Source of the DNA: Geosiphon pyriformis uo1
Lineage: Eukaryota > Fungi > Glomeromycota
Assembly (NCBI GenBank): GCA_016748015.1
Contig: JAAOMT010000134.1
Coordinates: 998,757-1,062,756 of the forward strand
Length of the DNA stretch: 64,000 bases
Direction: 5' to 3'
Shown here: in pieces, positions 34,745 to 62,475 of the stretch
How the letters are laid out: each line of letters starts with the position of its first letter
Position numbering within the stretch: the stretch's first letter is position 1
Made by a program: the position numbers and the translations under genes
The notes under the pieces: generated by a model
What the model was told of the DNA's origin: nothing
Databases searched by the model: none
The model's input: only the letters and a program-made list of their open reading frames with translations

Positions 34745-37700
34745 ATATATTAAACTAAATATGACTTATGTGCTTACTATATATAACTAGTTATTCAAGT
34801 CAATCAAAACCATACTATACACTCATATTAACTCTTAATTTATTATCTAAACTTGAAAAAAATAAACAAATTTTGCATAATTTAAAATTAATAGTAAATA
34901 ATTCAATAATCTCAAATATATGAATTATTTTAGATAAAAAAAATTCAGACAGATTATTGTATGTCTTAGACAGAATTTCTGTGTCTTTTACTAAACCATT
35001 TTTTTTTATATTAACCTTATATTTAAAACTAAAATTCATAATCTACTATAATATGCATTAGTCAAATATTGAATAAAATTAACCATTATTATCATAATAT
35101 TTTTTTTATTCTTAATCCTAGAAACAGCTTTGCTAATCCAATTCTTGAAAACAAACTCTTTACATAAAATTTTATAAATGTTAACATCTAATATCTTTAA
35201 TAAAAGAGTACACAATATTAAAAAAGTTAGTAAAAAACAAGATTTTATCAAGAAAAGCCACAATTTGGCATAATTTAACAAACTTTCAGAATGTGTTAAA
35301 GTGTTTTTTGAACAGATAAAAACATGATCAAATAGTTTAACATTACTATAAAACAAACACAATATATCTGAATACTTTATGTCATAAAGTCTTTTTTTAA
35401 TTATAGTTGGCAATTTGTTATAAACTGTTTTTATTAAATATGTGTAGAAAATTATTGAAAATCTGCTAGTGTAATCAGAAAACATATGAAAATCAGAGTG
35501 CTATACTGAAGCAATACAGTGCCAATCAATAGTCTAAATAAAAGAGTTTTGTAAAATTCTCATATCTGAATCCACCTTTTATTAAGCATAATTAATTATC
35601 TAATATATATTGTGAACAAAATATTAAGCATTGTCCAAAACAATTGATCCATCTACCAAAATAAATTTTTTATATATATCAGTAAGTAAAAAAATACAGA
35701 ACTGTATCATAATACTTGTAAAACTATCAGCTTTATCATTGTCAACATTTTCTAAATGGTTTTTGATTTTTATCTACTTAACAAAAATATTTTTAAATCT
35801 AATTAAATTAGCCACATAATATCTTTTAATTTAGTATTTATTTCGGAAATCAGATACAAATAACATAAACTTTAATATATATGCATTTATGGCAGCTTGG
35901 CTGTTTGTATATAAAACCATTAAGCATAATAAGAAGACATATTCTAAAGCTAAAGTGATAGTTTGCAATTTCAATAATGTTGATAATAACAAATTAAAAA
36001 CTTTTATACCAAAATCTACTTCAATCTTAGAAAAATACACTGCTGTTCTACTTGCCACATTAATAGTATCTAAATTGTACAGAAAATTATTAGTGTAAAC
36101 ATCAACTTCTCTTGCCTAAAGTTTATATAAATACTCTCAAACATCCAAGAATTTACTCAAGCTATAAAATTCCAAACTGTTAAGATTAAAGCTGTATTTA
36201 ATAAAATTAACAGAAGAGTTGTTTATATAATTAGCAGTTTTCACAAATTATATTGACATAGAGCTTTTTGAACTCAGTTTTTTTTAATAATAAAAGGTCT
36301 TCTAATTCATAATAGAACCATGTTTGTTCAATAATTTATTATTACAACCAATGCCAAAATGTTTTAAAGAGTAAATTACATTAAAGTAACATAAACCACC
36401 CAAAATTTTTAACATAGAAAAGCAATCAAAGAATCAGAATACACAAGATAACTCATTTGCCAAAGAAATATTATTATCCAAAAAAAATTTTATTATGCCT
36501 GTCAGAAAATTGTTTATGAGATAGACTTTCAATTTAACAGAAAATTGTAATAGATTTTTTGGTATTCAGTTTATAATTTGCAAATCCAGAAATTGATACA
36601 CAAATAGACTACTAAGAATTTCTGTTATATTAGAGAACCAAATTAATAAAACTATCTTGTCTTCAGCCTAGAGCTGTTTAAATAATTTAAGCCTATTGTT
36701 ACCCAAGTAGAAAAACTGATCCAAAGTTATGAAAAAACGTGACCAAAACGTAACATAACACAGAATATCATGCAATAATGTTGGATAACATGTTATAACT
36801 TAGAATAACATAGGATAACACAAAATAACATGTAATAACACCAAATAACATATTATAACATAAGATAACTAGTAATAACATAAAAAAACAAAGCAATTAC
36901 AAAAATAGCAAAGCAATAGTTAGCAATAACAGAACAATCAGAAGTAATTTTGTAAAACAAAAAGAATGTATAAAATGAGTAGCTGTAAAAGTTAGAAAGA
37001 CATCCAGAGAGAAAATTAGACTTTTAGAAATTAATTAAACTCTTAGAGTCAATTAGACTTACAAGTCATAATTATTAAATACTCTTCCTTTCAAAAATAA
37101 TTGCTATCAACCAAAATAGAATTATATCAATAAAATATCCCTTTAATTCTTCAAATCCATGTTATTATTCATTACTTAATCTGCTGGCACAATAACTCTT
37201 GATCACAGCTATTGACAGGACACTTATTTCTTATTTTTATTTTCTTTATTTTCTTTATTTTCTTTTATTTTCTTTTTTTTTCTTTTTTTTTTTTTTTTTC
37301 TTTTGGAATGGCAACATAAAAAAATTGACTGTTTGGAAATAGACTTCATAATAGCCTGGTAAAAGAGGGAGGCTCCCCCTAGATTTTGGATATTAACATT
37401 ATCTTGATAGCTTACCAGAAAGGCAAAAAGACAATACCAGACCCTAATGACTGTGCTTGTTAGCTCGGAGAAGAAAGCTTACATTTACAGAAAATGTTGC
37501 AATTGACAAAAAACAAACTCTGTGCCTTATAACCAAAGAACTCAACAGGTAAATTTACATCCAGAAATAGATCTTTAGAGACTGATAACCAAGATTAAGC
37601 CAACAGAATTATGTGGAAGATGCATCCCCAATAATTGAGAGCACCAAATGTTATTAGTTCCATTACTTACAAAATTTACCTGTAACACCATAAAATAATA

Positions 37701-42761: not shown

Positions 42762-43687
42762 TGTTACAGGTAATTATTTGGAGTCTTGAAACAAATAACA
42801 AACCTGTAACTTGGTGCTCAATAGCTGATATAATGATGTTGGTATCTGAAAGTTTTGGTTGTTTGAAAATTTAGGTTGAGTCTTTTATATAATAAACAGA
42901 AATTCCTGTGTTATTTTATCTGTAGCTTCTTGGAATCACAATTCTGTCAATTTCTTTCTCAGCTTAATGGCCAGTAATCTTCTGGTAAACAATCCATAAT
43001 TTTTATGTATTCTACCCACTTACAGGAGTCTTTTACCAAGCAACTCTTGACATTAATAACTTAGTACTTAATCTTTTAATCAATTAGTCAACAACAAAAA
43101 ATAACAAAATAAAATAAAATAAAATAAAATAAAATAAAATAAAATAAAATAAAATAAAATAAAATAAAAAAATAAGCCAAGGCAATAAATATTAGTATCC
43201 TGTCAATAACCATGATCAAGAGCTATTGTTTTAGTGTAGTTAAGTATCAATTACTATCAACATTTAGAGTTGATAGTGAGCAATTGGATTTAAGATGCTG
43301 AATAAATATATTTATTGATATTTTGGAATGATATATTTCTAACTAGAAATAATAACTAATGAATTTTTGTCTGGAGATTCTTTTTTTTTTGCTTCTACTG
43401 TTACTGCTATATATACATATTTTCTAGTTTTACAGGATTGTTTTGGATTGTCTGTTCATACTAGCTATTACTTTGTTTTCTTATATTATAACTAATTATC
43501 CTATATTATAACATGTTATCAAATATTATTACATATTATTCTGTATTATTCTGTATTATAACATATTATTTTATGTTATAATATATTATCCAATGTTATT
43601 GTATATTATTCTGTCTCTCTTCATGTTTCATCATGTTTTTTAGGTCATGTTTTTTTTTTCTGATAGGCTTTCTTTTTTCAAGTAATA
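42762..43687 (-). repeat. 3' LTR of Gypsy A
   Basis: Colinear with 61572-62475; contains an (AAAAT)n tract and ~11-bp tandem repeats. Confidence 0.9.
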
Positions 43688-43701
43688 TTATTTATTTTTT
43701 T

Positions 43702-44491
43702 TTAATATTGAGCTTCTGTGAAATTGGTTATATTTGTTAATAGAACTTTGTCTGTGTAATGTTTGATGGTAATGTTGACTATGGTTTTTTGTAGATCTTT
43801 GAACTGTTGATTGGTCATTTGTCTTATGTTGTTAACTGTTATCTTTTTCAAAGATCCATCCAATAGTACATTTGGACAATATTGGAAAGCAATATATAAT
43901 TAACATGCTGCTTTATAGTGTAATATTAGGTTGCTTCTTCCTACAAATTCTTTCACTTGTTACATTGCTTTTTTGTTGAAAGTTTTCCGATTGTAATTTC
44001 CATATGGGTTTTTTAAGTTTAGTTGTTCCCTAATTTTGTAAAACTAATATGTTGAAGAGAGTCTTTTTTTTTTACTTCTGGGTTTTATCTGGTGTTCACT
44101 TTCCTGTTTCAGAAAGTTCAGTCCTACAAGTTAAAGATTTTTTAATTTTTTCTAGCTTGAGAGCCAAATATATTGTATATAATTGTTTTTGTCTTTTATC
44201 CAATTTTCTCACTTCTTTTTCTTCCTTCCCTCTTTTTTCTCTATGTCTCATCCATAAAGTATATTTAATTCTTTTTTGTGAAATTTTTTTCCCAGGCAGA
44301 GTGTAGAGATAGAAATAGTTAGTTCTAATTGAACTCTTGCCTATTTCTCTCTTCCCCTTATCTTTATATCTTATCTTTTTTTTATTAATTATAATCTCTA
44401 TTTGAGATGTAGATTTTTGAATTTCATTAAATAATTGTTTAGATAATTTTAAAATTTGGTCTGAAAAGTCCATGTTTGAAATTTCTATCAT
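43702..44491 (-). pseudogene. Extra ORF between integrase and 3' LTR of Gypsy A (disrupted)
   Basis: MIEISNMDFSDQ... through ...ITVNNIRQMTNQQFKDL...NFTEAQY*, ending at the decayed PPT. Confidence 0.6.
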
Positions 44492-44941
44492 TCTCTTCTA
44501 TGTGGTCTCGAGACTTATATGTATGTAATATCTAAATTTCGGCATGTGTGTAGCTATGTTTTGATGATTATAATTGGTTTCATATTTTGTGATATATATT
44601 CTGATCTGATTAATGAAATTTGTGCTTCTAGTTGTGGTACCAATGATGTTAATCTTTGTGTTGTTTGATAAATTTTTAAATGATTTCTATGTGCTGTCTT
44701 TTTCAGAATTCTGTTTTTTAATCATAACTTGTAAGATCTGTTTTCCAAAATTTTGTGTATGTAAAATAGTTCATCACATTTTGGATCAAACTTTCTATTC
44801 TACTGTTTTTCCACTTTGGTACAATGTAACAGTACCTTGTCTCCAATCCTGAATTCAACTGGTTTATTTGGTAATTGGTTATTATGTCTTTCTTTTTGTT
44901 TTTTTTGTGACTTTTGAATGTTATTAGCTGCTTTTCACCAT

Positions 44942-45950
44942 TGTTACCAGTAAAATTTTAGCTATTAATTAGTATGAAATTACTCTTATAATTCCTATAA
45001 TTAATTAGTATATCAATATTATTTTAAATTATCATTTATCATTTAATCAATTATCACATATCACAATTCAATTAAATAATCTAATTAGTATAACAGAAAG
45101 TAGGATAATCAAATTACACAATACCCTGAACTTTGTAACATTCTAAAATTTGCCAAAATTTACAGAAATTCGCCAAAATTTATAAGAAATTCACCAAAAT
45201 TTATAGAAATTCACCAAAATTATGAATAGTTCATCCAAATTAATCAATAGTTCAGCAAAATAATTTGTAGTTCATCAAAATGTATCTTTAGTTTGCCGAA
45301 ATTTGAGCAAAGAGAAAAAGTGCAAGTTCATAGACTAGTACTACAACAAGTTGTATAAAAAAAGAGCTTTTCTTTTCAAAGAAATGTATCTTACTTTAGA
45401 ATTATCACTTAAAACCATTCCTACACACACAAAAAAAAATAAATATCAAATAATTCGAAAACCAAATTCTTTAATTATTGCACTTGGAAAATCCTCAAAA
45501 CCCAACTAACATTTTAAAATTGATTAGCTACCAATTTCAGTAAACTGTTAGTGACTCCAGGCCTGGATAGAAAACGTTTCCCTTGATAAAATTCCATTTC
45601 TTTTATATTTCTTTTATTTTTCTTTTCTTTTCTTATTATAATCATTAGAGTAGCCTACAGACAAGATTCCTGTAGAAAAGTTGACTTTTACAGTAAAGTA
45701 ACTACACATTTTAGTGAGTTTCCAGAAGAGCAATTCCTGGAAAAGAGTTGATGTTTACTACAATGTGACTACACAAAGTAACTGGCATGGAATTAGCCAT
45801 TCCACTCATAAGCCTAGCAGTTCAAATTATAGGAGATAATTTGAAGATAAATTCAGTTATTGGAAATTCAACTGCTTCTAGAAAACGTGAATTTACAACA
45901 AACAGACATTGACAACATTTAAGAAAAAAGACCAAAAACCTCTGGTAACA
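44942..45950 (+). mobile_element. Solo LTR (unrelated family) inserted in the integrase tail of Gypsy A
   Basis: TGTTACCAG...CTGGTAACA ends; TSD CCAT/CTGT; ~20-bp tandem repeats at 45143-45300; TATA-like box ~45354; removal restores the host reading frame. Confidence 0.8.
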
Positions 45951-48035
45951 CTGTTTGTTTTTCAGCATTTCTATTAAATTATATGTTTTTCTTAGCAATG
46001 TTTCTTAGAAATTGTCTTTTGTTATTGGTTCTATTGAATATGTATTAACCTCTATCTTAACTGGTAATGTTGCTGTTCTACTATATACTAATTCAAATGG
46101 TATTGCTTGTGTAGTATCTTGTTTTATTGTCTAATAAGCAAATAATACTGATGGTATAAATAAATTTCATTTGTTCTGGTTTTTTTGGCTGATCTTGGCT
46201 ATCACTTCGCACAATGTTTTATTGAATCTTTCAACTAATCTATTGGTTTATGGATGATATGATAATGATAATAGTCTCTTTATTCTGGATCTTTAACTCA
46301 GTTCTGTTAATGTTCTATTCACAAAGTGAGTTTTTTGGTTGAATAATAATTCTTTTGGACATTTATGTCAACAAATTAGATCTTAATGGATGAATTTGGC
46401 AATGGATTCTGCATCCACTCTTTGAATTGCTTTTGCTTCTGGTCATTTAGTGAGATAATCCATGGCTACTGCAATATATCTGTTCCTTTTACTAGTTATT
46501 GTTAATAATCCAATTAAGTCAATTCCAATATGATTGAATGATTGTCCTACTTTAATTGGTTTTAATGGCTTGCTGAGTCTTGTTTTTCTTCTTTTCTAAC
46601 AAAGATTACAATTTTGAACAAATTGGATGATGTTTAGATACATGAATGGCCAATAGTATTTATTTCTGGTTCTTTTTATGGTTGCTTTTTTATGGAAATG
46701 TCCTGCTGTTAGATTTGAGTACATATTAAATAGTATTGTTTTCTTCTCTGGTTCTGTGATTACTTTGGTTGGTTGTTCAAGATTCTTTCAGTTCTTTCAA
46801 TAGAATAAATTGTGATAGGTGATAAAATATTTTGATTGTTGTTTTATGTTGTTTTGTTTCTTTTGAGATAATTTCTCCTTGAACTGTTTAGTATTTATAT
46901 AATGTTAAAGCTGTTGGTATTTTTGTGTGTTCATTTTTTTATTATATTTTTGGGTTTAAAATGTTTTTAGATTTGTTTTATTCACAACAAGCCATCAGCA
47001 TTTCCATTTTCTTTTCCCTTTTTATAATATACAATATAAGTATATAGTAAAAGTGTTATTTTTTATCTTGCATGATGATTGTCTCCAAATTCTTGCTTTT
47101 AAATTAATATTAATCTTTTGTGATCAGTATACACCTCGAATTTTTAACTTAAGTATTCTTTCTATTTGATGACTGCCCAATAGATAGCTAAGTATTTTAA
47201 TGCTGGTGTTCCATGATTTTTTTTAGCTAAACTCAAATTGCAGCTAGTGTATACTACTGAGTGTTTTCTTTCATCCAGTTTTCTCCGAGATAGTACAGCT
47301 CCCAGTGCTTGGCCTAATACATTAGTAGTAATAATGAATGGTTTGCTGTGATCTGGATAGATCAATACTGGTGCTTGAATAAGCTTTTTCCACAGTATAT
47401 TGAAAGCTTCTTGCTGGGTTTCAGTCCACTTGTACTTAACATTCTTGGTTTGAAGCTAATGAAGTGGTTGAGCCAGTTTGGAAAAATCTCTAATAAAGCA
47501 GTAGTAATAACCTGCAAATCCCAAGAATACTTATAGTTTGGTCAAGTTAGTTGGTATTGGAAATTTCTTTACTATCTTGATCTTATCTAAATCTGTTTTA
47601 ATATCATCTTTGTTCACGACATGTCTCAAAAATTTTAATTCTGTTTTGCCAAAAAAGCACTTGTTTGCATTCAATTTTAATTCTGTCTGTCTGAGTCTTT
47701 CAAATACTTGCTGGAGGTGATAAAGATGATCATCAAATGTTTTTGAAAACACATTGATGTTATTCAAATATACGACTACTGATTTCTATAATAGTCCAGT
47801 ATACATAATTTCTATTAGCCATTGGAATGTGACTGGAGTATTTATTAAGCCAAATGGTATTACTTCAAATTCAAAATTTTCCTCTTTTGTTGTGAATGCA
47901 GTCTTTTTTTTGTCAGCTAGATTTATGGCTATTTGTCAATAACCACTATTTAAATTCAATATTGAAAACTATTTTTTTCCACTGAAAGCATTAAATAATT
48001 TTTGGATCTGTGAGGTCAGATAACTGTCTCTATGA

Positions 48036-48914
48036 TGTTACAGATAATTATTTGGAGTCTCAAATCAAATAACAAAACTATAACTTGGTGCTCAGAGCTT
48101 TCGTGATGATGGTAATCTGAAGGGGTTGTTTGTCTGAAGGTTTTGGTTGAGTCCTTTGTATAATAGACAGAGATTCAAGTATTGTCTTCTCAGTAGCCTT
48201 CCAGAATTGTAATTCTGTCAAATTTTTTTTTAGTGTAGTGGCCAGTAATCTGGCAAAAATGTCTTTCTGGTAAGCTATTCTGAAATTCTCAATGCTATAC
48301 CCTTTCTTTAAAGTCTATTACCAGGCTTATCTTTGATGTCAATAACTCAGTGCTTTTATTTTTTTTTAATCAATGTAGTTAATAACAAAATAACAAAGCA
48401 AAAATAAAAAAAATAAAAAAAAAATAAAAAAAAATAAAGAAAATAAGCCAAGACAATAGAAGTTAATATCTTGTCAATAGCCATGATCAAGAGCTATTGT
48501 TCCAGTGTGATTAAATATTAATTATTATCAACATGAAGTATTAATAATGGAAAGTAGATGAAAATAGCAAATAATTATTTATTAATTTATTTGTGAATAG
48601 AAAGATTGCTTAGATCAAATTTAAACTGAAAGGTTTGTCTTTTCTACTTTTAATGCTACCACTATATATACATAATTGAGATTCCTCAATTCCTCAATTC
48701 TTCATACCAAGAATCCTGGAATTTCTGGAATCTTGCAATTCCTTTGAGAAGAATCCTGGAATTCTGGAATCCTGTGATTTCTTGTATAAAAATTCTGAAA
48801 TTTCTGGAATCCTGCAATTTCTTTGAGAGAAATCCTAGAATTCTATATTTACTACAGTTACTTCTGATTGGCTAATTTATATGCTAATATACTTTTTATA
48901 TTTTATAAGTAACA
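48036..48914 (-). mobile_element. Solo LTR related to LTR A, inserted in the RT of Gypsy A
   Basis: TGTTAC...GTAACA; exact TSD ATGA (48032-48035 / 48915-48918); first ~500 bp homologous to LTR A. Confidence 0.9.
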
Positions 48915-49669
48915 ATGAGTAACTCTATTGAGTTTTTTATAATCTCCACAAAAGCAGATTTTCCCATTCTTTTTATAGACTAGTACCATTGGTAATAATC
49001 ATGAACTTATAAATAGTTGAATTAACTCATTGTCTAACATCCGATTGATTTCTTGTTAGATGATTTTATGGCTGGCTGGTAGTATCCTGTATGCTCTTTG
49101 TTTAATTGGCATAACATCTCTAGTCTTGATCTGATGCTGAATAATGTCAGTTCTACTAAACTTATTTTCACTCGCAAAGATATCAGTGAATTTGTTAAGT
49201 AGCATCTTGATATGTTGTAGTAGGTCTAAGTTTCCCAAGTTTATTTGTTCTAATTGTTTTGATTGGAGCAAATAGTATTTATTTCGTCTGTATATAGCTT
49301 GTAATGTAATGTCCACATATCCATATAGTTGTAAAAAGTCTGAAATATGATTTGGTGATTGGTCCTCAACTTCAGTGGTTAAATATTCAATAATGGTTTC
49401 TTCTGATATTTTAATAATGTTTCCAGTTGTATTATAGATGGGAATTTTGATATGATAGTAGTTCTTGGCTAGTATATAGAGATTAGTAAATCCAATCTCT
49501 CCTAATTTACAAATAGTTGGCTCTGCTTCAAAAATCTGGGCTTGATTCTTCACTTTCCTTTCTATTATTACCATGTATTGGTTATATAGTAGAATAAAAA
49601 TTGCTTAACAGGTGAAGATAATTTCTCTCTTGTTAATAACTTTTTTTTCTGCTATATTAACTAATATGT

Positions 49670-50070
49670 TTATTCTACTCATGAATCTAAATCCACTAAT
49701 CTCTTTAGCTATAATCCCTAATTTTTCTCAGTTTCCCACTAATACTAACTGAGCTATTTTAATCAGAGGCAGGAATATTGCCTGTGCTATTTTTTCATTT
49801 GGTTTTATGATGTAGGTCTTTTCTGAGTCATTTTATAGCATTGCAATAATATTTTCTACATATTCTGTATTAATTATTCTTTTTTGTATATTGATTCTCT
49901 TTTTTGCTAGACTATTTCTAAATACTAGTTGAATTATGGTAATTGTTAGAATTTTCAATACTATTTTGAGATCAAGCAAATGTGTGAATGTAGTTCTAAT
50001 TTGATGGCTTTTTTTTCTGAGTATCTCAGATCAAATTCTACATTAGTATCATGTACATATTCTGGCATAA
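49670..50070 (-). pseudogene. dUTPase domain within the pol of Gypsy A (degenerate)
   Basis: DTNVEFDLRY (motif 1, AGFDL), RNSLAKK (motif 2, RSS), IINTEYVENI (motif 3, IDxxYxG), KIAQAIF (motif 4), AKEISGFRF (motif 5, RGxxGFGS). Confidence 0.8.
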
Positions 50071-51401
50071 TATTTTTATTATTATCATTGAACTATTTCA
50101 GTTTCTGCTTCTTGGTAAGATTAGGAAGCACAATGTATTGTTTGGAATTTAAATCAGAGTTTGAATTGTTGTTATTTTGGTTGCTATTTTGGATGAAGCT
50201 GGAACTATTATTATTGTTGTTGTCAATGTCAGAGTTTGAATCAAGATTGAATGTTAATTTTGATTCTAATGCACAGCAGCTAATTGGTTTTTCCTCCTCT
50301 GGGATTGTGTAGATTATGTGTAGTAGTGGATTGTAAATAAGATTGCACTCATTACAATATTGAAAGTCACAAAAAATTAAGCAGTATTGACAGAGTCAAG
50401 TGTTTAGCTGTTTTAGATACTGCTTCTGTTTTTTTCGGGTGGGTGCTAGGTTCTGGTAATGTTTGTGAAAATGTTCTGAATTGTCTTTAATGTTGTCAAA
50501 AACATCAAAAGTAAAAATATATTCGGGTTCTGAAAGAGAAAGTGGATTGTTTTTAATTTTTAACAGTTTACTGAGTGTAGCACTTTTAACTTTGGCACTC
50601 ATTATTCTCTAAATCTTATGCTTGTCATATGGGCAACCTTCTAAATGTCTGAATGCTTGTTTCCAAGCATTGTCAATTGGAGTTTCTTTTCTTATCCAGT
50701 TGTTTATAAGAATTATGTATTGGCATTGTTATGGTTGAAACTTATACTTCTTATTAATTATCACATGTATTAGCCACTGATGTCACATAAATTAGCCATT
50801 TTATTTTTAAAAAGTGATTATTAACCTGATCAATAACCTGACCATTGACTTGATTATTGACCACTTTTGACAGCTATATAAGTGATGAATCTCTTAGCTG
50901 TAGAAAAGCATGTAGAAAATCAAGGAAATCAAATAAATAAAAATAACAACTTTTATCTCAATCATTCTCTTATTGCTAATTTCTCTTTTCCTATCTTCAA
51001 GTATCTAAACATTTTGGGATAAAAAATTACTTGTTGGTTATTCTTTACCCTTTTCCTGACTTGTATAATTGTAACATTTGAAGATTATTAAATAAAACAT
51101 GACTAAAGAGTACATCTGATACCTAATATTGAATTCTAAGAATACCAATGTGAGGCATAGAATTATATCAGTGTGTGATTATTTGTTGACAGTATGGATT
51201 ATCTCTCTACCTTCAGATTTCTGGTTATCCTTTAAAAAGTATAGCAACTGAAATATTTTATGAGACTGATCTTGCATATTGAATTTATACTTATTCAATT
51301 CACTTATTGAAGTTGAAAGCCCTTTGATTATTTCTATCACTCTACAATTCTGTTCTCTCTTGCTATCCATTAGCTTGTTACTCCAACCTGTAACATAAAA
51401 G

Positions 51402-51418
51402 TGGTGCTTTCTGTGAGG
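51402..51418 (+). promoter_or_regulatory. Primer-binding site of Gypsy B
   Basis: TGG-initiated 17-mer 6 nt after the LTR; resembles the complement of an elongator tRNA-Met/Ile-type 3' end (identity not verified). Confidence 0.75.
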
Positions 51419-54400
51419 TTGTCAAATTCTACTTTGTTTCCTATTGTATGGGTGATTATTCATATCTGCCACAACAATCAGAAGAACATTTTAAAGCATA
51501 CAACAAAAACAATCTAGACTCTATTGAACTCAATCCTTTGCCCTTCTGCTTGATTTGCTTCCTCATTGAAGAACAATCCAGCAGACAATTCCAAGACTTT
51601 TGGAACTGGTTCCTGAATGAGCATTTAGCTGAAACCTATACAGCTTATACAACTTATTACTTTGACCAAGCTTATTTTGAAGACAACTTTGAAGAAAGAA
51701 ACAACAGTATCAATCAGCTCTTATATTCTACAATCTTTGAACAACAGTCCCCTGATTTCGAATATCTGAATCATCAAATTCACATTTGAATTGCTGCCCA
51801 TCAATCAACAGAAACTCTTCTTAAAACAGAAGAAGAAAGCTATCAAACCACTTCTGTTTTTAATCTCTTTTCAAGTAAATTAGAACACTCCACACAAATA
51901 GTTACACCTGAACCAATGGCTCAAGACCCTCTGCAACAAAACATTTTGATTGCTCTCCAAGGTATACAGACTGCTTTAGGGTGAAGAAACAACATCTTAT
52001 TACTATTATTCAGAGGTAATGCCCAAGATCCAATCAAATGACTGGATGATTTTGAAAGAACTGTCACAGCAAACCAATATGATAATGAATACAAGTTCTA
52101 AATTGTTGATGGCTATCTTCAAGGCTCTTTTGCTACTTGGTTCTCACAAAAAACCAATACCAATGCTCAACAAAGAATCATTAGATGGGCACCAGCAAAT
52201 GCTGAAGAAGACAACACTTCATTTACTACTTGGTTTGAAATGAAATTTAGAATTCCTATCTTAATCTCAAAATGACATATAAAATTAGAAAAAAGAACTT
52301 AAGGCCTTGGTAAGGTTGTAACAAAATATGCCAAAGCAATAAAAAAACTCATTAAATAAGTAGACTCTGGAAAAAATTAGACAGAAAAACAAAAGATTCA
52401 TTCCTTTACAAAAGGACTGAAAACTGATCTATCATATGCTTTTTGGCCTCTTCTGGCCTTGAAAGATAATCCCACAATGGATATGGCCATTGAACTTGCT
52501 TAGAGAATAGAAGACAATCAAAGAATACACCTAGGATCCACACTTCCAGTTTTTGCTCCTGCTCCCCAAATGGCTGTTACCTCTTTTGCTGCCCAAACTC
52601 AAGACCCAAATGAACAGTTAATAAATAGACTTACAGCTAATTTTGTCCAGCTATTAGAACTATTAGCCCAAGCAGTTAGAGACAACCAGCAACCCCAAAG
52701 ACTCAGATTTGAACTTCACTTCAATCAGCTTCAGCAACCACCATATCAAAGACAACAAAATCATGGCCCACCTGTGTGCTATTACTGTGGACTAACTGGA
52801 CACTTTTCCAAAGACTGTAACAATCTTCTATTGCCTCCTCCAGCTCCCAGAAATAATGACATCCAGAATAACAGACCCAACAATAATAATGTTCCAATTA
52901 TGCCAATATCAATTTCTTTGGAGAGGATCCCTTGGTTGAAGTTACTGTTTATCAGCCTTTAAACTGGTAGGCGCATCTTCAAAGGGTGAGAGTACAAGCC
53001 AATCAGAAGAAAACCCCTTTTATGCTTTTAACCTAACTGATAATGATCATAATATAGATAAACTAGTAATCAACCTCTCTGAATCAACCAGAAAGAAAAA
53101 GAAAGCCAAGGTTGATTTTGTCTTGAACCCAAACAAAGCATCCAAATCATCTGCTAATAACAATAAACCACCAAAGGCTAAGGTTTTTAAAAATCTCTCA
53201 AAGTTGAAATCCCCAGAAATTATACAAAAATTTAGGCCCTATTTTGTTAAAAATCTTATGGAAACTCCAGCACACATTATATTTGGCCAACTGATGACTC
53301 ATCTACAGTTCAGAAAAAATCTTTGCAAATCATTGATACCAAAGAAGAAAACACCAAAAACCAACAAATGCTTTTGTCAAGCTGAACTTGCTGATAACAG
53401 CAATGTCACTCCTCTGATTTGTAAAGCCCAAATGGCTGGTTACTTTATTGATCTGATCCTAGACAGTGGATTATCTGTTAGTGTAATTGCCAAACATTTT
53501 CTTGAAGCAATTGGCAGAAAGATTAATGAACCTTTCACAAGATCAATGACCAACATATATGGTGACAAGAAGAAAGATCTGGACATAGCCAAAGCTATTC
53601 CTATTCGCATCAATAATATCAGTATTGAAACTGATATGGAAGTATTTGAAACAAAAAAGTACACCATCATTGTTGATAATAAATAGCTTAAAAAAGCCAA
53701 AACACTACTTGACTATGAACTTTGTAAGCTAACCATCAGATGTGATAAGAAATCTATTGTGGTTAAATGCCAACATTGGACAACTCCTCCAGTACCCAAA
53801 CAGAACCAAGAAGAAGAACAATCAAATGAATCAAATGATAATGAGAGTGATGATAAAGATCAAAAAGAACAAGAAGAAACTGCTGAACTTGTCTATACCA
53901 TCTTCACCAGCAATAGCAAGCCACTAGATAATATTAAAGCTAACAAAAAAGGAATTATGATAAATGGCAAGTTGATCTGTTGGCCCTACTATGATATCCT
54001 CAGAAGAATCTTTGACAGAAAACCTGACAAGAAAGCAAAATACAGTTATTAGTAGCATGGCTCTTGTGTACAGTGCTAGTATAATAAACTTTTGTATTTA
54101 CCAAGTAATGAATGTAAATTCTGCCTAATTTATTACAAAAATTGAGAACCAATTAGCTTAATACCTCGAGAAGAACTTAAAGAAATACAAAAGTTTTTTG
54201 AGAATAAACCACCTAAAATCCAATCATTAGTTATAGAACAAAGAGAACCTTCTCTTAAAGAAAAAAAAGTGAACATTGAAAATTTGTTGGTTAGAAATAG
54301 TCCAGTTATCTTAAAAGAAGATGATATTCTTGGATGAATCCATGTAATACAACACACCATCACCACAAAAAAAACTCATCTCATCTATTTGAAGTCTTAT

Positions 54401-56968
54401 TAATTCAATTGACATAATGATGAATTTATCAAGAAAGAAATAAACCAGATGAAAGATCTTGAATTCATACAAAAAACCAAGAGTAAATGGGCTTTTCCAG
54501 TTGTAGTGGTATCCGAAAAAGATAGAACTCTATGCTTCTGTGTTGACTACTATCAATTAAATGCCATCACTATAAGAGACATATACTTACTCCCCAAAAT
54601 TGATGCAATGCTAAATAAATTCAATAGTGCTGCTTTCTTCTCAACCATTGACTTAACTGCTAAATTCTGGCAAGTAGAGATGAATCCAGAAAGCAAAAAG
54701 AAAACTGCTTTTATTACCAAGTATGGCATCTATGAATTCACAGTCATGCCTTTTGGTCTCACCAATGCTTCTTCCATCTTTCAATGCCTAATGGATAAAG
54801 TTTTTGAATCAGTAAAAGAAAACTTTGTTCTGGTTTACTTGAATAACATAATGGTATATTCAAAAACCTGGGATGAATACCTTGAACATTTACAAAAGGT
54901 TTTTGACTTGCTCAAAAATGCTGGCCTTAAGATCAACCCAATCAAATCTTTTTTTGGACACCAATCCACCCAGTTTCTTGGTTATCTTATTACAAAAGAT
55001 GGAATCTTTCCTGACCCAGCTAAAGTTGAAAAAGTCCAGAATATTAGACAACCAATGAATGTTCCTGAACTATGCTCTTTCCTTGGTTTGGTCTTTTACT
55101 ATCGCAAATTTATCAAGGATTTCTCAAAAATCATCTTTTTTCTCAATTAGCTACTCAGAAAAAATGTCAATTATCACTGAAGCACTCATCAACAAAAAGC
55201 TTTTAAATTTCTAAAGGAAAAACTTGTTACTGAACCAATTCTTAAACAACCTAATCTGAACCAATCTTTTATTTTTCACATTGATGCATCTGGTTATGGA
55301 CTTGGTGCTATCCTTTCACAAAAAGATGAAAATGGCAGAAAACATCCCATAGCATATGCCAGTAGATTCCTCACACCAGCAGAAAAAAACTATTCAGTTA
55401 CTGAACAAGAATGTTTAGCAGTAGTTTGGGCTACTAGCTACTGGGATCAATATCTTCTTGGTGCAAAATTCTTAGTGGTAACAAATCATTAAGCTTTGGT
55501 TTGACTGTGCAAAAAAAAGAAGCTGGAATACAAATGAATAACTTACTGGATACTTCACTTGGATGAATTCGACTATGATATTCAACACTGCAAAGGAGCA
55601 AATCATCAAAATGCCAACGCTCTCTCTAGACTTACCATCTAGTGATAGTACAATCTCTCAAACCAAACCAACTTAATTATTAGTAACCCTTTTACAAACA
55701 AACACAATAATAAACTTGGACAACTAATCTGCTTTAATGGAATTTTTGGGTAAAAGACAATACCCACCAGAATACACTCAACATCAAAGAGAACATTTGC
55801 ACAAACAATCAAATTTTTATTTGATTTATCAGAACCAATTATACAAAAAAAACAGAAAAGATTCTAATCACCCCCAGAGAGTCATCAGGTTTAAAGAAAA
55901 AGAAATTGTAATATACAATATACACACTGACCCATTAGCTGAACACTTTGGAAAAACAAAAACAATTCAGAAAACTTTAACTCGTTATTATTGGCCTATC
56001 TTGGAAAAAGACATTGCTGAATACATTAAAACCTGTAACATCTGTTAAAGAAAAGGCAAATCCAATTGCAAAGAAGATATCCATCCAATCTCTGTTGGTC
56101 AACCATTTGACAGAATTGGTATAGATGTTGTTAGAGCTTTAACAATCACTCTTGATGACAACAGATATATTATCACAGCTACCAACTATCTTACAAAGTG
56201 GGTAGAAGCAAGAGCTATTCCAAACCAAACAGCAGTCTCAATAGCCAATTTTATTTATGAAAATATTATTTGCTGTCATGGCTGTCTCAAAGAACTTTTA
56301 TTTGATAGAAAAAGAGCTTTTCTCAGTACACTGGTTGAAGAACTTTGTAGAAAAATGGAAATATGTCATAAACTTTTCTCCTCTTATTATCTCCAAACAA
56401 ATGGCCTAATGAAACATTTCAATAGAACATTATGTAAAACCCTAGCCAAAACCAGTAAAGAAACAAACTTATGGGACAAAGTACTGCTTTTAGCTTTGTT
56501 TGCTTATAGAACTGTGAATTATGACATAACAAGTTATGAACTTTTTTATCTGCTCTATAGATGTATAGCAATACTACCAATAGAAATTGACATTGAAACA
56601 ATACTTTTTGAAGAAATCACAATAGGAAATTACAAAGATATTTTGCAAAGAAAACTTGGTATCATTCTTGACTCCTTGATAGAAGCATGAATAATTGCTT
56701 TTGAAAAGATAAAACAGTTTTAAGAAAAGCTTAAGAAAAAAAAAATCTATAAAACACTTTTTTTAAGTGTTGGTGACTTGGTACTAGAATACTGTTCAGA
56801 CAAAGACAATGTCTATGGTGATAAATTTTTTAGTTGATAGAAAAGACCCTATATAGTCAACAAAGTTTTAAATAATGGCTCTTATATTCTTCAAGATCAA
56901 TCTGGAACAATCTTTAATGATCATTTTGTTTATAGTACACGACTCAAGAAATATCATAAATGACCTAA

Positions 56969-57690
56969 TTGGCTGTCTGTTGTGATAATACCGACCCAAA
57001 TGATCAGCAAAAATCAAGTATAAATAAATGCACCATTCCCAAAACAGAGGTATCTTCAATCGACATAAACAATTATTTTCTGGATCAAAACATCCAAAAT
57101 GCCTTCTATACTTTTTATGAGTATTGGATCAAAAACTACCCAAATACTACTCTGATTATTGGAAAACAGACCACTATAACTGATAATAGTGGAACACATA
57201 CTGTTATCAGACCAAAGAAAACTACTACCAGAAGAAAAAAAATTGGTAGTAAAATGGATAAATATCTGTTGGAAAGTATAACAGCAGTTATACTTCTACC
57301 TTTCAATACAATTGAAAAAACACTCCAAAAAATTTTACTCATAGACAAAAACTTGTTATATAAAAGATAATTAGAACTCTATGGTCATCTTAGTGAAATT
57401 ATAGAGAATATAAAACTCATAAAAAAAACAACTTCAAAGATACAGGCAAAAATTTTGGGCATTATACAGTTAGATATCCCAAGAGTTTTAACTATTGCTA
57501 AAAGAGCCAAAACTTTAATACAAAGATTTGGTCTCTTGGATATAAAACTTATTTCGCCTTGAGTATTATATATTTTATTCACAAAAAACTTTAACAAACT
57601 AGTTAGCTTTGAGTTAAATAAAACTCTTTAAATAGATTACACCATAAATAGCTTGATTTTACTGAAGTTCAATCTCTTTGGAGAGGATGA
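56969..57690 (+). pseudogene. Extra ORF between integrase and 3' LTR of Gypsy B (disrupted)
   Basis: The 133-aa ORF continues past in-frame stops to ...IAKRAKTLIQRFG...ISP*VLY...FNKL...DFTEVQSLWRG*, overlapping the PPT. Confidence 0.6.
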
Positions 57691-60600
57691 TATTATGATT
57701 AAAACTTATACTTCTTATTAATTATCACATGTATTAGTCATTAATATTACATAAATTAGCCACTCTATTTTTAGAAAGTGATCATTGACCTAATCATTAA
57801 CCTAATTATTGACCACTTTTGACAGCTATATAAGTGATAAATCTTTTAGCTGTAGAAAAGCATGTAAAAAATTAAGGAAATCAAATAAATAAAAATAACA
57901 ACTTTCATCTTAATCATTCTCTTATTGCTAATTTCCCTTTTTCTACTTTCAAGTATCTGAACATCTTGGGATAAAAAATTACTTGTTGGTTATTTCTTAC
58001 TCTTTTTCTGACTTGTATAATTGTAACATTTGAAGATTATTGAATAAAATGTGACTGAAAAGTACATCTAATATCTGATATTGAATTTTAAGAGTGCTGA
58101 CATAAGGCATAGAATTATACCAGTATGTGATTATTTGTTGACAGTATGGACTATCCCTCTACCTTTAGATTCCTGGTTATTCTTTAAAAAGTATAGTAAC
58201 TGAGATATTTTATGAGACTAATCTCACATATTGAATCCATATTTATTTAATTTGCTTATTGAAGTTGAAAGCTCTTTGATTATTTCCATTACCCTACAAT
58301 TTTGTTCTCTCTTACTATCTATTAGCTTGTTATTTCAACCTGTAACAGCATGTTTTGTTGCATGTTCCTTCTTGTCCAAGAATGTCATTTCACATTTTTT
58401 TGTTTGGTAGAGTGGTTCTACATGTGAGACAAGATTTGTTGTTCCATTTTCCTTGTCTTTTTGGTCATCCAAAGCATTCAAAAATGCATAAGTGGCAATA
58501 AAACTTTGTTGCAGTTTGCCATTTCTTATCATTGCCACAGCATGTGCCCATTGTGGACAATTTCTTGCCATATTCAACACATATAAGCTTGGATTGATGA
58601 TAATTGGTTTGATGGTATAGTGTATAAGTGGAGATAATGACTGGTGTTGACTCTTCTTTTCTTTCATTTTCTTTTTCTTTTTCCTTCCATGTTAAAATTG
58701 ATGATAGCTTGTTGTGATTGTGATTAGTTCATAAGACTTGGTAGACTTTCCAAGTGGGTTTTTTTTCTTCTTTCTCTAACTCAATTAGTGGTTTTTTATT
58801 GGTGGTGGTCTTGAAATATCCACACATTGCTGGTGCTTGTGTGTGTTGTCCATTTGATTGAGTTGTAGTTTTTGGATGTTCTAGTTGAGCACAGCATTGG
58901 TCTTGAACAGCCAGTCATTATTAACTAGTGCTTGATATTGGGTGGCTTTTATGATGAGGACTTTGATTGGCATAACAATGCCACTGATTTCAAAGGGAAA
59001 GTTGTCAATTTCACCTATTGAAGTCTTTGTTGTCTCATCAGTGGTAATTATTCATGTACTGGTAATATGATTAACTTGGCAATCTAATTGATTCATAAGT
59101 TGTTGGGTGATGATGCTGCCAACTGATTTACTGTCTAGGATCAGTTTAATAAGCTGACCATCAACTTTGGCATCTGTATATATGGTCATAATGAGTTTTG
59201 ATTCTAAGGTGGCTCTACTGAATAGCAGTGTTTCAATTGGTTCTTTGAGTTCAAAAGAAAAAATGGCAGTAAGTAATTCATCTTCAGTAATGGTTGCTAA
59301 CAGTATGTTGTTGGTAGGTGGCTGCTTTTGTTTGGCTTCCAAATTGTTAGATGTGGTGTCTTTTGGAGTAACCAAAAGACTTAAATAGTTCTGGGAATTC
59401 AGATTTTAAATATATTCTGTTTTTAAACTCCATTGTCATGATCCTGAGGATTGGGTTGAGAAACTGAAGATTGGTTGATGCATAACCATTGCTGATTTTC
59501 AGTTTTGTTGAGTATAGGTGACTTTCAGCTTTTGGGTTTCAGTAATTAATTGAGCTGAGTTGGATGGCAGTATTTGAATTTGTTGGGGCTAATAGATTAC
59601 TTAAAGCTATAGCTAATAGATAAGTTGAGGCTGTAGTGGATAAACTACAGGTGCTGGAGGCTAATAAATTGGTGGTTGATAGATTGGCTGCTGCATTATA
59701 AGTAAGTAATTTGGTTGATATGGTTCTGGGTTTGATTAATAATTCAAAGTTTGAAACTGGCAATCAGGATTTTGGTATTGATTTCCCAATTGTGGAATAT
59801 TGCTATAAATTTGGTAACTAGCTCTAATGTGTTCTTGTTTACCACAATTGTAGCAAACACATATCTCTGGTTGTCACAGTTGATTGGTTAATGATGATGA
59901 ACATGTCTGATTTTAGAAACAATTTGAATTTCTTGAATTATTACATCATTGTGGAGGTTGATAGATTGTCTGATTGTTAGCTAAGTATTTATCTAATTTC
60001 TGATTAATTAAATCACTGAACTGCTTTAATTTGAAATCCAAGTCAGATCATTCGTTTATTACTAGATTTATGGCTTGAACATGATTGGCTTCTAGTTTGA
60101 TAGCTTTAAAATCTCTGGTGTAAATGACTGCTGCTCATAAGTTTGCTGGATGCAATAGGCATATATGTTGAAGAATACTACTGCACAGGCCTCTAATGAA
60201 CTGATTTAAGATCTGTAGCATGGTGAAATAATCAGCTTGGATCATCTGAATTTGGTGCAGATTTCTGTAAAAGCATTCTAGATAAGTAGTGACTGCTTTA
60301 GTTTCTTCTTGCTTGATAGTGGTGAAGGTATTGGCTAGACAATTAATACTATTATTGTTGCTAAAATATTGTAGAAACTCAAGCTTAAATGTGTTGAAAT
60401 CCTGAGATTTGTTGGCTAAGCTTTGATACTATGAGTTGATGGTATTCTAAAAAAAATACGAGATGGCTTAGAGCATTCTGGCATTATTCCAACTGTTGGC
60501 TGCAATGGCTTTTTCATATTGTTCAGCCATACTTGGGTGTCATCTTCTTCACTGGTAAATTTTTCTATTTTGGCAATTGGAGCATAGGTTATTGGTTGTT

Positions 60601-61553
60601 GTTGTGGCAGTTGTTGAAATAGTTGTTGTGGTTGTTGTTGAAAGAATACTTGCAACTGTTGAATAAGTTTGGCAATTAGTTTAATTGGTAGCTGATTGAT
60701 TATGATTACTGGAGATAAGTGTTGTTAATTAATTATGTTGGGGTTTGGATTGTTCTGATTTTGTGGAGTTTGAATATTTGGGGTTTCAACTTCTGGGTTT
60801 TCTAAAATCGAATTTCTCTTATTATTTTCTTGATTACTATCTTTTTCTTCCTCGAAATTGGTTATTTCCCAAGGATTAACGGTTTTGAAATCTGGTTGTA
60901 ATGGTAGTAATTAAGTTCCTGATGGCATTAAGAATTATAAATTAAATTTCTCAAAGTAATTGCCATATGTTCCCAATAACTCTGTTTTCTTTTGTTTATT
61001 TTGAAATAGGATTCTGTTTAGTGGTATTGTCATGTTTATAGTGAATGCATCTGTTGATGTTATATTGATGGTGCTTCTGGATATGTAATAGTATGATGGA
61101 TTAGCAGGTAAATTGATTTTCTATTTCTTTCAAATGAGTAATTGTATTTGTTTTGGAGTTTCTACTGGTGTTTGTAATCTTCCTTTTTCTTTGTTGGCAA
61201 AGGTGATAAGGAATTTTTGTTTGGTGTATTTTTCTATTTTTCTATTTATTTCCATAATTAGTAGTGCAAATAAATAATTCTGTAGCAGTGTAATGCTTTA
61301 GAGTAGTTCACTGAAAAAATTGTTGAAGGCAAATTCTGAATCTTCTTGGCCTCTTAAGTAATATATTATTTTTTTGTTGATGTAGCAATTGAAAGCTGAT
61401 TCTGTTGGCCAACTATTATTTGTTAATTAAAAATAGGTGTGATAATGTTGGAATAAAGATTTTGCGAATTCTAGATGGTTTGTCTCTGTTTCTTTGAATT
61501 CTGCTACTGTTTTGGATGGGTGTTGTTGGTACCAGTTCTCTATTGGATTATAC

Positions 61554-61571
61554 TTTACAGAGAACACCAAA
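61554..61571 (-). promoter_or_regulatory. Primer-binding site of Gypsy A
   Basis: Minus strand TTTGGTGTTCTCTGTAAA directly after the 5' LTR; a transition-decayed version of a B-like PBS. Confidence 0.7.
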
Positions 61572-62475
61572 TGTTACAAGTAATTATTTGGGGTCTCAAA
61601 ACAAATAACAAACCTGTAATTTGGTGCTTAATAGCTAGTATAATGATATTGGTATCTGAAGATTTTGGTTGTCTGAAGGTTTAGGTTAAGTTCTTTGTAT
61701 AATAGATAAAGATTCCTTTATTATTTTATTTATAGCTTTCCAGAATTACAATTCCATCAATTTTTTTCTCAGTTTGGTGGCCAGCAATTTTCTGGTAAGC
61801 AATCCATAATTTTTATGTATTCTACTTACTTGCAGAGATCTTTTACTAGGCAATTCTTGATGTCAATAACTCAGTACTTAATTTTTTAATTAATTAGTCA
61901 ACAACAAGAAATAACAAAATAAAAAAAATAAAAATAAAAAAAAATAAAAATAAAAATAAGCCAAGGCAATAAATGTTAGTATCCCATCAATAGCCATGAT
62001 CAAGAGCTATTGTTTCAGTGTAGTTAAGTATCAATTACTATTAATATTTAGAGTTGATAATAAGCAATTGGATTTGAGATGCTAAATAAGTATATTTATT
62101 GATATTTTGGAATGATATATTTTTAACTAGAAATAGTAATTAATAAATTTCTGTCTGGAGATTCTTTCTTTTTTGCTTTTACTACTACTATTATATATAC
62201 ATATTTTCTAGTTTACAGGATTGCTTTGGATTGTCTGTTTTTGCTAGTTATCACTTCGTTTTTTTACATTATAACTAATTATTCTATATTATAACACATT
62301 ATCTAACATTATTATACGTTATTCTGTATTATCTTGCATTATAACATGTTATCCTATATTATAATGTATTATCCAATGTTATTGTGTATTATTCTGTGTT
62401 CTTTTATATTTTATCACATTTTTTAGGTCATGTTTTTCTTTCTTTTTTTGATAGGCTTTCTTTCTTTAAGTAATA
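61572..62475 (-). repeat. 5' LTR of Gypsy A
   Basis: Colinear with 42762-43687; followed by the TSD GTAT. Confidence 0.9.

What the first reader, a model, noticed from the sequence alone, without database searches (positions are those of the whole stretch)
61554..61630. U5 carries a tRNA-3'-end mimic (GAGCACCA) that can fold over the PBS, conserved in three LTR families
Seen: on the sense (minus) strand the LTR-A end reads GAGCACCAA-GTTACAGGT-ttg-TTATTTG-loop-CAAATAA-tt-ACCTGTAAC-at-TTGGTG(T/C)TC (LTR part from the cleaner copy 42762-42819, PBS from 61554-61571). This is a ~70-nt hairpin pairing the att end and the TGG start of the PBS. The motif recurs in solo LTR 48085-48093. In the much more divergent solo LTR, GAGAGCACCAAATGTTA (37637-37653) is complementary over 17 nt (one G:U) to A's LTR-end/PBS junction although its loop sequence is unrelated. 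Element B has only a short TGTTAC/GTAACA hairpin. Known: Tf1/sushi elements self-prime by annealing the transcript 5' end to the PBS, and retroviral U5-PBS hairpins gate tRNA annealing. Inference: either a self-priming system built on a tRNA-like CCA end, or a PBS-occluding switch.
Basis: partly seen in the sequence, partly recalled or inferred. Interest (0 to 1): 0.75.

Follow-up and report, generated by a model that had tools for sequence, protein, structure and literature searches.

The report
Hairpin lid over tRNA primer site
In a decayed Gypsy-type jumping gene of a likely mycorrhizal fungus, the end of the terminal repeat is predicted to fold back over the first half of a primer site that matches a methionine tRNA, so it is likely a lid that controls tRNA priming, not a self-made primer.

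Summary
The hairpin is real. The native LTR end plus PBS of element A folds with z = -4.0. The GAGCACCAA arm lies 41-50 nt before the LTR end in three related LTR subfamilies, 55-65% identical.

Self-priming is the weaker reading. From the PBS of A and of nested element B I predicted a tRNA 3' end and found it in an intron-bearing tRNA-Met(CAT) from another organism. The PBS matches it 14/18 (A) and 16/18 (B), and every mismatch is C>T or G>A. The U5 arm covers only PBS nt 1-8 or 1-10. A is not a chromovirus (AU p = 0.00014), has 4-bp TSDs, and its conserved TATA-like box lies over 600 nt upstream. The 'tRNA mimic' follows from the arm being an inverted copy of a tRNA-derived PBS.

Best reading (0.6): tRNA-Met priming behind a PBS-covering U5 stem, as in retroviruses. 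Corrections: the divergent LTR's loop is homologous (30/39), and B and a fourth solo LTR lack the arm. Untested: transcription start, the host's own tRNA, any full-length copy of the divergent subfamily. The scan's earlier self-priming notes on other DNA concern elements described as lacking a tRNA PBS.

The parts
61572..62475 (-). 5' LTR of Ty3/gypsy element A; 4-bp TSD ATAC
   Evidence: 86% identical to the 3' LTR; TSD read; loose contig ends pile up at 61572
61621..61629 (-). U5 anti-PBS arm (this copy AAGCACCAA; GAGCACCAA in the other three LTRs)
61573..61620 (-). U5 inverted-repeat stem-loop: 9-bp stem on the att end, inner 8-bp stem, 11-nt loop
   Evidence: the same stem folds alone in the 3' LTR (z -4.35) and in solo A2 (z -2.53)
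61552..61569 (-). 18-nt PBS of A, after a TT spacer; complementary to the 3' end of an elongator-type tRNA-Met(CAT)
   Evidence: 14/18, all mismatches C>T or G>A; sister contigs mostly carry the tRNA-matching letter at PBS nt 6
61535..61543 (-). possible second arm downstream of the PBS, predicted to pair with PBS nt 5-13
   Evidence: z -2.2, 6 of 200 shuffles as good; weak, seen in one copy only
62194..62201 (-). TATA-like box, with AATAAA 101 nt downstream at 62100; suggests (inferred) a start site about 550 nt upstream of the arm
   Evidence: conserved and aligned in A, A2 and C LTRs
42762..43687 (-). 3' LTR of A, with the cleanest arm at 42811-42819
48036..48914 (-). solo LTR A2 inserted in A's RT; TSD TCAT; arm at 48085-48093
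36697..37687 (+). divergent solo LTR C; TSD CTAT/CCAT; arm at 37637-37653 predicted to pair over 17 nt with an A-type junction
50727..58347 (+). nested Ty3/gypsy element B (gag zinc knuckle, protease, RT, RNase H, integrase); TSD GCAT; no anti-PBS arm
51402..51419 (+). PBS of B, 6 nt after its LTR end
   Evidence: 16/18 to the same tRNA-Met 3' end
44942..45950 (+). solo LTR D inserted in A's integrase; 46-50% identical to the others in a forced alignment; no anti-PBS arm near its end
43688..61571 (-). decayed interior of A (gag, protease-like stretch, dUTPase, RT, RNase H, integrase without chromodomain), interrupted by B, A2 and D
   Evidence: Retrotrans_gag E 2e-5; dUTPase E 1e-5 and no chromodomain; RT-RNase H by tblastn; protease and integrase core read by eye

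Best explanation
Element A is a decayed non-chromoviral Ty3/gypsy retrotransposon whose PBS matches an elongator-type tRNA-Met and is therefore likely tRNA-primed, and whose U5 carries an inverted copy of its own LTR-end/PBS junction that is predicted to fold over PBS nt 1-8 and likely acts as a lid on primer annealing. Shown: the complementarity, the match of the PBS to a tRNA-Met 3' end, the conservation of the arm in three subfamilies, and the phylogenetic position. Inferred: transcription starts near the TATA-like box far upstream, so the arm lies inside a long 5' leader. The hairpin keeps the CCA-binding half of the PBS closed on free RNA. Gag's zinc-knuckle nucleocapsid would open it and load the tRNA in the particle. 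The inner stem on the att end would remain as a U5-IR-like stem in front of the initiating RT. Closing PBS nt 1-8 could also blunt silencing by 3' tRNA fragments; this is speculation.
For: A tRNA pattern predicted from the two PBSs retrieved 1 locus among the genome contigs. It is a tRNA with a CAT anticodon and an anticodon-loop intron (Rfam 53.6 bits, E 1e-10). PBS matches are 14/18 and 16/18, with only C>T or G>A differences. That is the decay seen between A's two LTRs: 113 of 124 differences are transitions, and 116 of 279 G/C columns differ. A and B agree at 14/18 in the PBS and at 1/18 in the next 18 nt. The 17-mer occurs twice in the window within 3 mismatches, both times right after a 5' LTR, against 0.02 expected. 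The arm complements only PBS nt 1-8 (A3, A2) or 1-10 (C). GAGCACCAA is one of four invariant runs of 9 nt or more among A3, A2 and C, against a three-way invariance of 365/790 columns. A and C keep the pairing with the att end through different registers across a 9-nt indel. Majority letters in sister contigs restore Watson-Crick pairs at 61564, 61620 and 61579. A TATA-like box lies 630-721 nt before the LTR end in A, A2 and C. Opening A's PBS costs 14.5 kcal/mol, against -21.8 (decayed PBS) to -37.2 (perfect PBS) for the tRNA duplex, tRNA unfolding not counted. Precedent: nucleocapsid exposes the paired U5-PBS of MLV (PMC11181671, section 8 and passages), and the Ty3 5' PBS tends to be paired intramolecularly (PMC11381356, passages).
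Against: The tRNA found is a stray eukaryote-type contig in a bacterial MAG, not the host's gene. No host genome was held and the window has no tRNA. The family letters at PBS nt 14 and 16 were not shown, so A's match beyond nt 13 rests on assumed decay. B uses the same PBS without the arm, so the arm is dispensable in this lineage, and B's PBS still costs 10.5 kcal/mol to open. C's LTR does not fold on its own (z +0.45), so the inner stem is not conserved. No substitution covariation could be tested: only one full junction with the arm is in hand. The start site is inferred from a motif, and AATAAA is common in DNA this A+T-rich.
Confidence: 0.6

Rival explanations
1. Tf1-like self-priming, alone or beside tRNA priming. 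A transcript starting at the GAGCACCA motif anneals to PBS nt 1-8/10 and is cut by RNase H, and the tRNA-matching PBS is a relic or a second route.
For: The geometry resembles that of chromodomain elements: 3 of 3 controls have a 9-10-nt PBS complement 73-94 nt before the LTR end, against 8-10 nt at 41-50 nt here. The arm is among the best-kept LTR blocks. A's PBS is more decayed beyond nt 13 than B's. Tf2 switches start sites (PMC5341516, passages).
Against: The PBS begins TGG and matches a tRNA beyond the arm's reach, whereas the three controls have a non-TGG PBS. The AU test rejects A with the three chromodomain elements (p 0.00014) and with all 8 chromovirus-side rows (p 0.017). No aligned TATA-like motif lies just upstream of the arm; the conserved one is over 600 nt from the LTR end. 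Cleavage at the arm would leave a strong-stop DNA of about 50 nt that must contain R (inference). Tf1 uses the first 11 bases of its RNA (PMC7175516, passage); A's arm has 8.
Confidence: 0.17
2. A neutral or nearly neutral quasi-palindrome. A fold-back or template switch during reverse transcription copied the primer-cDNA junction into U5 of one ancestor, and such switches keep perfecting it.
For: The three carriers are homologous. B and D lack the arm. The 9-nt A-versus-C indel is an exact complement of the att end, as template switching would give (mechanism recalled).
Against: A G+C-rich 9-mer stayed invariant in three LTRs that are 55-65% identical, where the column rate of 0.46 gives about 0.001 for a given 9-column window (arithmetic; alignment-dependent). 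Its distance to the LTR end is kept at 41-50 nt.
Confidence: 0.18
3. The inverted repeat works at the DNA stage. In minus-strand strong-stop DNA the copy of the arm pairs with the attached tRNA's 3' end, or the plus-strand strong-stop DNA folds over its PBS copy, which times primer removal or second strand transfer.
For: Both strands are predicted to fold as DNA (z -3.77 and -2.83).
Against: Any inverted repeat folds on both strands. No precedent was found in the passages read. Early primer removal would endanger PBS regeneration (inference).
Confidence: 0.05

Closest known systems
Retroviral U5-PBS structures: MLV U5-PBS opened by nucleocapsid (PMC11181671, section 8 and passages); Rous sarcoma virus U5-IR stem-loop (seen only as cited in PMC3601003 and PMC5445492 passages)
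   Same: tRNA-matching 18-nt PBS; U5 inverted repeat overlapping the att end; PBS predicted to be paired until a zinc-knuckle Gag domain remodels it
   Different: Here in a fungal Ty3/gypsy element. One continuous arm complements both the CCA-binding end of the PBS and the att end. Nothing here is tested by experiment.
Tf1/Tf2 (S. pombe), Tj1 (S. japonicus) and Tf1/sushi-Tcn1 chromoviruses (PMC7175516, PMC4600332, PMC6317226; passages)
   Same: LTR sequence complementary to the start of the PBS within 100 nt of the LTR end, with a U5 stem between
   Different: Those lack a tRNA-complementary PBS and put the primer at the RNA 5' end. A has a tRNA-Met PBS, no chromodomain, a dUTPase, 4-bp TSDs and a distant TATA-like box.
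Ty3 of S. cerevisiae (PMC11381356, passages)
   Same: tRNA-Met-primed Ty3/gypsy element whose 5' PBS tends to be paired intramolecularly
   Different: Ty3 uses initiator tRNA-Met, with an 8-nt 5' PBS plus 3' parts and downstream pairing partners. A matches an elongator-type tRNA-Met over a single 18-nt PBS, with an upstream U5 partner.
Ty3/gypsy polyproteins of Rhizophagus clarus and R. irregularis
   Same: nearest named RT relatives (45-49% to B's RT), no chromodomain listed
   Different: Their LTR and PBS DNA could not be fetched, so whether they carry the arm is unknown.

Membership tests
Ty3/gypsy (Metaviridae) LTR retrotransposon | LTR pair with TG..CA-type ends and TSD; gag-PR-RT-RH-IN order | tested here: met
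   A's 5' TG has decayed to TA in both LTRs
tRNA-primed LTR element | PBS starting TGG within a few nt of the 5' LTR and complementary to a tRNA 3' end | tested here: met
   14/18 (A) and 16/18 (B) to tRNA-Met(CAT) of L001
tRNA-primed LTR element | the matching tRNA is encoded by the host | not testable with these tools
   no genome held; none in the window
Tf1/sushi self-priming group | RT groups with chromoviruses | tested here: not met
   AU p 0.00014 and 0.017; A lies in a 12-row non-chromoviral clade at 98/97; no named Tf1 or sushi sequence was in the tree
Tf1/sushi self-priming group | chromodomain after integrase (most members; recalled) | tested here: not met
   none in 6 frames read for A or 3 for B (decayed sequence); PF00385 in 1 of 120 listed longer relatives, a plant protein
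Tf1/sushi self-priming group | PBS not complementary to a tRNA | tested here: not met
Tf1/sushi self-priming group | LTR stretch complementary to the first 9-11 nt of the PBS | tested here: inconclusive
   8 nt in A3 and A2, 10 nt in C (9 and 12 with the spacer Ts); none in B or D
Tf1/sushi self-priming group | that stretch is the 5' end of the transcript and is cut by RNase H | not testable with these tools
   no RNA holder listed; only motif positions available
Tf1/sushi self-priming group | 5-bp TSD (recalled, from no call) | tested here: not met
   4-bp TSDs: ATAC, GCAT, TCAT exact; CTAT/CCAT 3 of 4; D 2 of 4
Retroviral-type U5-IR/U5-PBS structure | U5 inverted repeat overlapping the att end and pairing into the PBS | tested here: met
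   predicted fold
Retroviral-type U5-IR/U5-PBS structure | structure forms in RNA and affects primer annealing or initiation | not testable with these tools
   needs probing and mutants

The most novel reading that the evidence does not exclude
The A/A2/C lineage is caught between the two known priming modes. It keeps a full tRNA-Met PBS but has gained, by fold-back copying of its own primer-cDNA junction, a U5 arm that can serve as a self-primer from an alternative start site. It would then show how self-priming arises from tRNA priming outside the chromoviruses.
Probability: 0.15. Interest if true: 0.75.

Novelty: new variant of a known kind. Interest (0 to 1): 0.35.

Why it matters
If the lid reading holds, a retrovirus-style U5 control of primer loading also exists in mycorrhizal-fungal Gypsy elements, with sister elements (A with the arm, B without) on the same tRNA as a natural comparison. 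It is also a warning for annotation. The rule used in PMC6317226 (methods passage) calls a self-primer from at least 10 bp of LTR complementarity to the region after the LTR, and subfamily C would pass that test despite a likely tRNA PBS. If instead the arm primes, the lineage would be a rare intermediate in the origin of self-priming.

Tried and rejected
No whole genome was held, so no copy census was possible.

The LTR-end+PBS pattern gave 0 hits in viral contigs. It gave 21 hits in metagenome contigs: 18 are one G+C-rich, probably bacterial gene, 1 is a tandem repeat, and the 2 others tested gave no Pfam family. So 0 of 21 are usable junctions. A 15-base junction pattern gave 22 viral hits; none has a second inverted copy and none matches more than 3 of the next 7 PBS letters. 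The tRNA pattern gave 0 hits in viral contigs.

B's RT found no related viral loci. An RT alignment found 17 loci, none in the window's clade; they served only as tree references and controls.

Sequencing runs: no RNA holder listed. Only X1 of 3 runs laid, and it may be the window's own sample. The second laying listed 7 places and missed two known differences nearer the edges, so it says nothing on PBS nt 14 and 16 or on conservation of the 5' arm. Depth peaks over the hairpin were not used, since the tool says depth is no copy number.

The 56-row tree finished only as a quick tree. The test used 22 rows; near-duplicates and long-branch L037 were left out.

A covariance model was not built: there is one full junction with the arm, and the 3' side is fixed by tRNA and integrase.

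Lin and Levin 1998 was not held and was seen as a title only.

Literature searches listed nothing on a PBS or U5 hairpin in Glomeromycotina elements. The library lacks most subscription papers, and I opened no supplements; those of PMC6317226 hold PBS tables that may bear on this.

Full report
Setting. The window is A+T-rich eukaryotic DNA. A host Pex24p-domain exon has 8 homologs, 7 named and all from Gigasporaceae genera, at 43-55% identity, so the host is likely a Glomeromycotina fungus outside that family. No whole genome was held. Self-alignment gives element A on the minus strand (LTRs 61572-62475 and 42762-43687), nested element B (50727-58347, +) and solo LTRs A2 (48036-48914, -), C (36697-37687, +) and D (44942-45950, +). 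B has a zinc knuckle, RT, RNase H and integrase in gypsy order. A has gag, a dUTPase and RT-RNase H. TSDs are 4 bp.

Observation. The native stretch 61552-61632 folds at -22.6 kcal/mol, z -3.97, with the arm 61621-61629 on the spacer and PBS start, a stem on the att end, an inner stem and an 11-nt loop. The 3' LTR and A2 fold the LTR part alone (z -4.35, -2.53). C does not (z +0.45), nor does B (z -1.29). GAGCACCAA occurs three times against 0.16 expected. In each of A5, A3, A2 and C the best partner of A's junction is the arm, 52-65 nt from the end. B has no partner better than -15.2, and D's best lies 792 nt away. C's loop is homologous to A's (30/39), and the three carriers are one lineage at 55-65% identity. 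The real difference between A and C is a 9-nt indel. A pairs with the att end through GTTACAGGT and leaves a 2-nt bulge. C pairs through ATGTTA with no bulge.

The PBS is a tRNA site. B's PBS (51402-51419) and A's (61552-61569) agree at 14 of 18 positions and at 1 of the next 18. Their reverse complement has the layout of a tRNA T-stem, acceptor stem, discriminator and CCA (established tRNA structure, recalled). I searched for such a gene before seeing one. Viral contigs gave 0 hits. Genome contigs gave 1: a tRNA with a CAT anticodon, an anticodon-loop intron, a G1-C72 pair and a TTCG T-loop. By these features it is a eukaryote-type elongator tRNA-Met (criteria recalled). ARAGORN in bacterial mode missed it. 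It lies on a stray contig of a bacterial MAG and is not the host's gene. With CCA added it matches A 14/18 and B 16/18, and every mismatch is C>T or G>A. One of them is position 18, where both elements have T, so the host tRNA may differ there. Such decay is ordinary here: 113 of 124 differences between A's LTRs are transitions, and 116 of 279 G/C columns differ. In run X1, contigs laid on A carry the tRNA-matching letter at PBS nt 6 in 159,323 of 168,724 depth units; X1 may be the window's own sample. PBS nt 14 and 16 were not listed. The arm complements PBS nt 1-8 in A3 and A2 and nt 1-10 in C. With the majority letter at nt 6, A's PBS matches the tRNA through nt 13, five bases beyond A's arm. 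The 'tRNA-3'-end mimic' is thus an inverted copy of a tRNA-derived PBS.

Lineage. The nearest named RT relatives are Rhizophagus polyproteins; 1 of 120 listed longer relatives has a chromodomain, and it is a plant protein. In a 22-row RT-RNase H tree, A and B sit in a 12-row clade (98/97) apart from three chromodomain-bearing elements (L028, L029, L033). Forcing A with those three is rejected (p-AU 0.00014), and with all 8 chromovirus-side rows at p 0.017. No named Tf1 or sushi sequence was available. The three controls all show the self-priming signature: a non-TGG PBS with a 9-10-nt complement 73-94 nt before the LTR end. The geometry in A is similar, which keeps self-priming alive; the PBS is not.

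Where the arm lies in the RNA. A TGTATA(T/A)A motif is aligned in A, A2 and C, 630-721 nt before the LTR end, with AATAAA 81-162 nt later. B has a TATA-like motif 523 nt before its end. This is the TATA-then-AATAAA layout described for Metaviridae LTRs (PMC3601003, passages), which also notes that AATAAA lies close to the 3' end in Sushi LTRs. It would put the arm deep in U5 and not at the 5' end, where Tf1 has its 11-nt primer (PMC7175516, passage). This is inference from motifs. No RNA holder was listed, and Tf2 shows that start sites can shift (PMC5341516, passages).

Is the arm kept by selection? It is one of four invariant runs of 9 nt or more among A3, A2 and C (one is a T-tract), against 365 of 790 invariant columns. 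Majority letters in sister contigs restore pairs at 61564, 61620 and 61579, although 61580 shows a C>T change in about 37% of depth. Against this, B and D lack the arm, C lacks the inner stem, and template switching can build and perfect inverted repeats without selection (recalled). Substitution covariation could not be tested. Searches for further junctions gave 0 usable of 21 in metagenomes and 0 of 22 in viral contigs.

Mechanism. In 421 nt of native context PBS nt 1-6 pair with the arm at probability 0.96-1.0, and nt 7-13 pair at 0.5-0.9 with 61537-61543 downstream. That second arm scores z -2.2 alone and is only a lead. Opening A's PBS costs 14.5 kcal/mol and B's 10.5; the tRNA duplex gives -21.8 to -37.2. 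A tRNA could therefore displace the arm once chaperoned, as nucleocapsid does for MLV (PMC11181671, section 8 read whole, plus passages). The Ty3 5' PBS is likewise prone to intramolecular pairing (PMC11381356, passages). The PBS is the target of 3' tRNA fragments (PMC7472051, passages), which gives a possible benefit to hiding it; that is untested. I put 0.6 on the lid, 0.17 on sole or dual self-priming, 0.18 on a neutral quasi-palindrome and 0.05 on a DNA-stage role.

Novelty. Paired U5-PBS structures and self-priming are both known. Ten library searches listed no description of this arm, or of the PBS, in Glomeromycotina elements; the library is partial. PMC4600332, PMC6317226 and PMC5445492 were seen as passages. 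Eight earlier notes of this scan on hairpins at the PBS in other genomes concern elements described as lacking a tRNA PBS; they are unchecked and did not change my reading. Verdict: a real, modestly conserved feature and a new variant of a known kind; interest 0.35.

Noticed in passing
window 61985-62025 (-), and the homologous stretch in A3, A2 and C: A second conserved block of the LTR (CTCTTGATCA and TATTGACA invariant in A3, A2 and C) folds as a small hairpin (z -2.74). Laid contig depth is highest here.
   Followed up: partly
window 61535-61543 (-): A 9-nt stretch just downstream of A's PBS is predicted to pair with PBS nt 5-13, so the two arms together would cover nt 1-13. It may lie in gag coding sequence.
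   Followed up: partly
window 51396-51401 (+): B has a 6-nt spacer between its LTR end and the TGG of the PBS, against 2 nt in A.
   Followed up: no
window about 55630-55650 (+) and 46960-46990 (-): RNase H ends in stop codons before the integrase in both B (three stops in a row) and A. This agrees with earlier notes on a stand-alone integrase in this genome, but both copies are decayed.
   Followed up: partly
window 49640-50100 (-): dUTPase domain between protease and RT in A (E 1e-5); none found in the same interval of B.
   Followed up: partly
window 42762-62475: Three insertions nested in A: B, solo A2 in RT and solo D in integrase. Four of five TSDs read contain CAT, TAT or AT, which may reflect a target preference.
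   Followed up: no
L001 301-409 (-): An intron-bearing eukaryote-type tRNA-Met gene on a 4.5-kb contig of a bacterial MAG, likely a binning contaminant.
   Followed up: partly
L028, L029, L033: Three circular chromodomain-bearing Ty3/gypsy contigs with intact pol frames and apparent self-primer signatures.
   Followed up: partly
L024 948-8108 (+): One 2387-residue frame joins gag, pol and a baculovirus F-like domain.
   Followed up: no
window 40154-40641 and 63063-63551: A 490-nt inverted repeat pair at 67% identity, unrelated to the LTRs; probably another decayed repeat.
   Followed up: no
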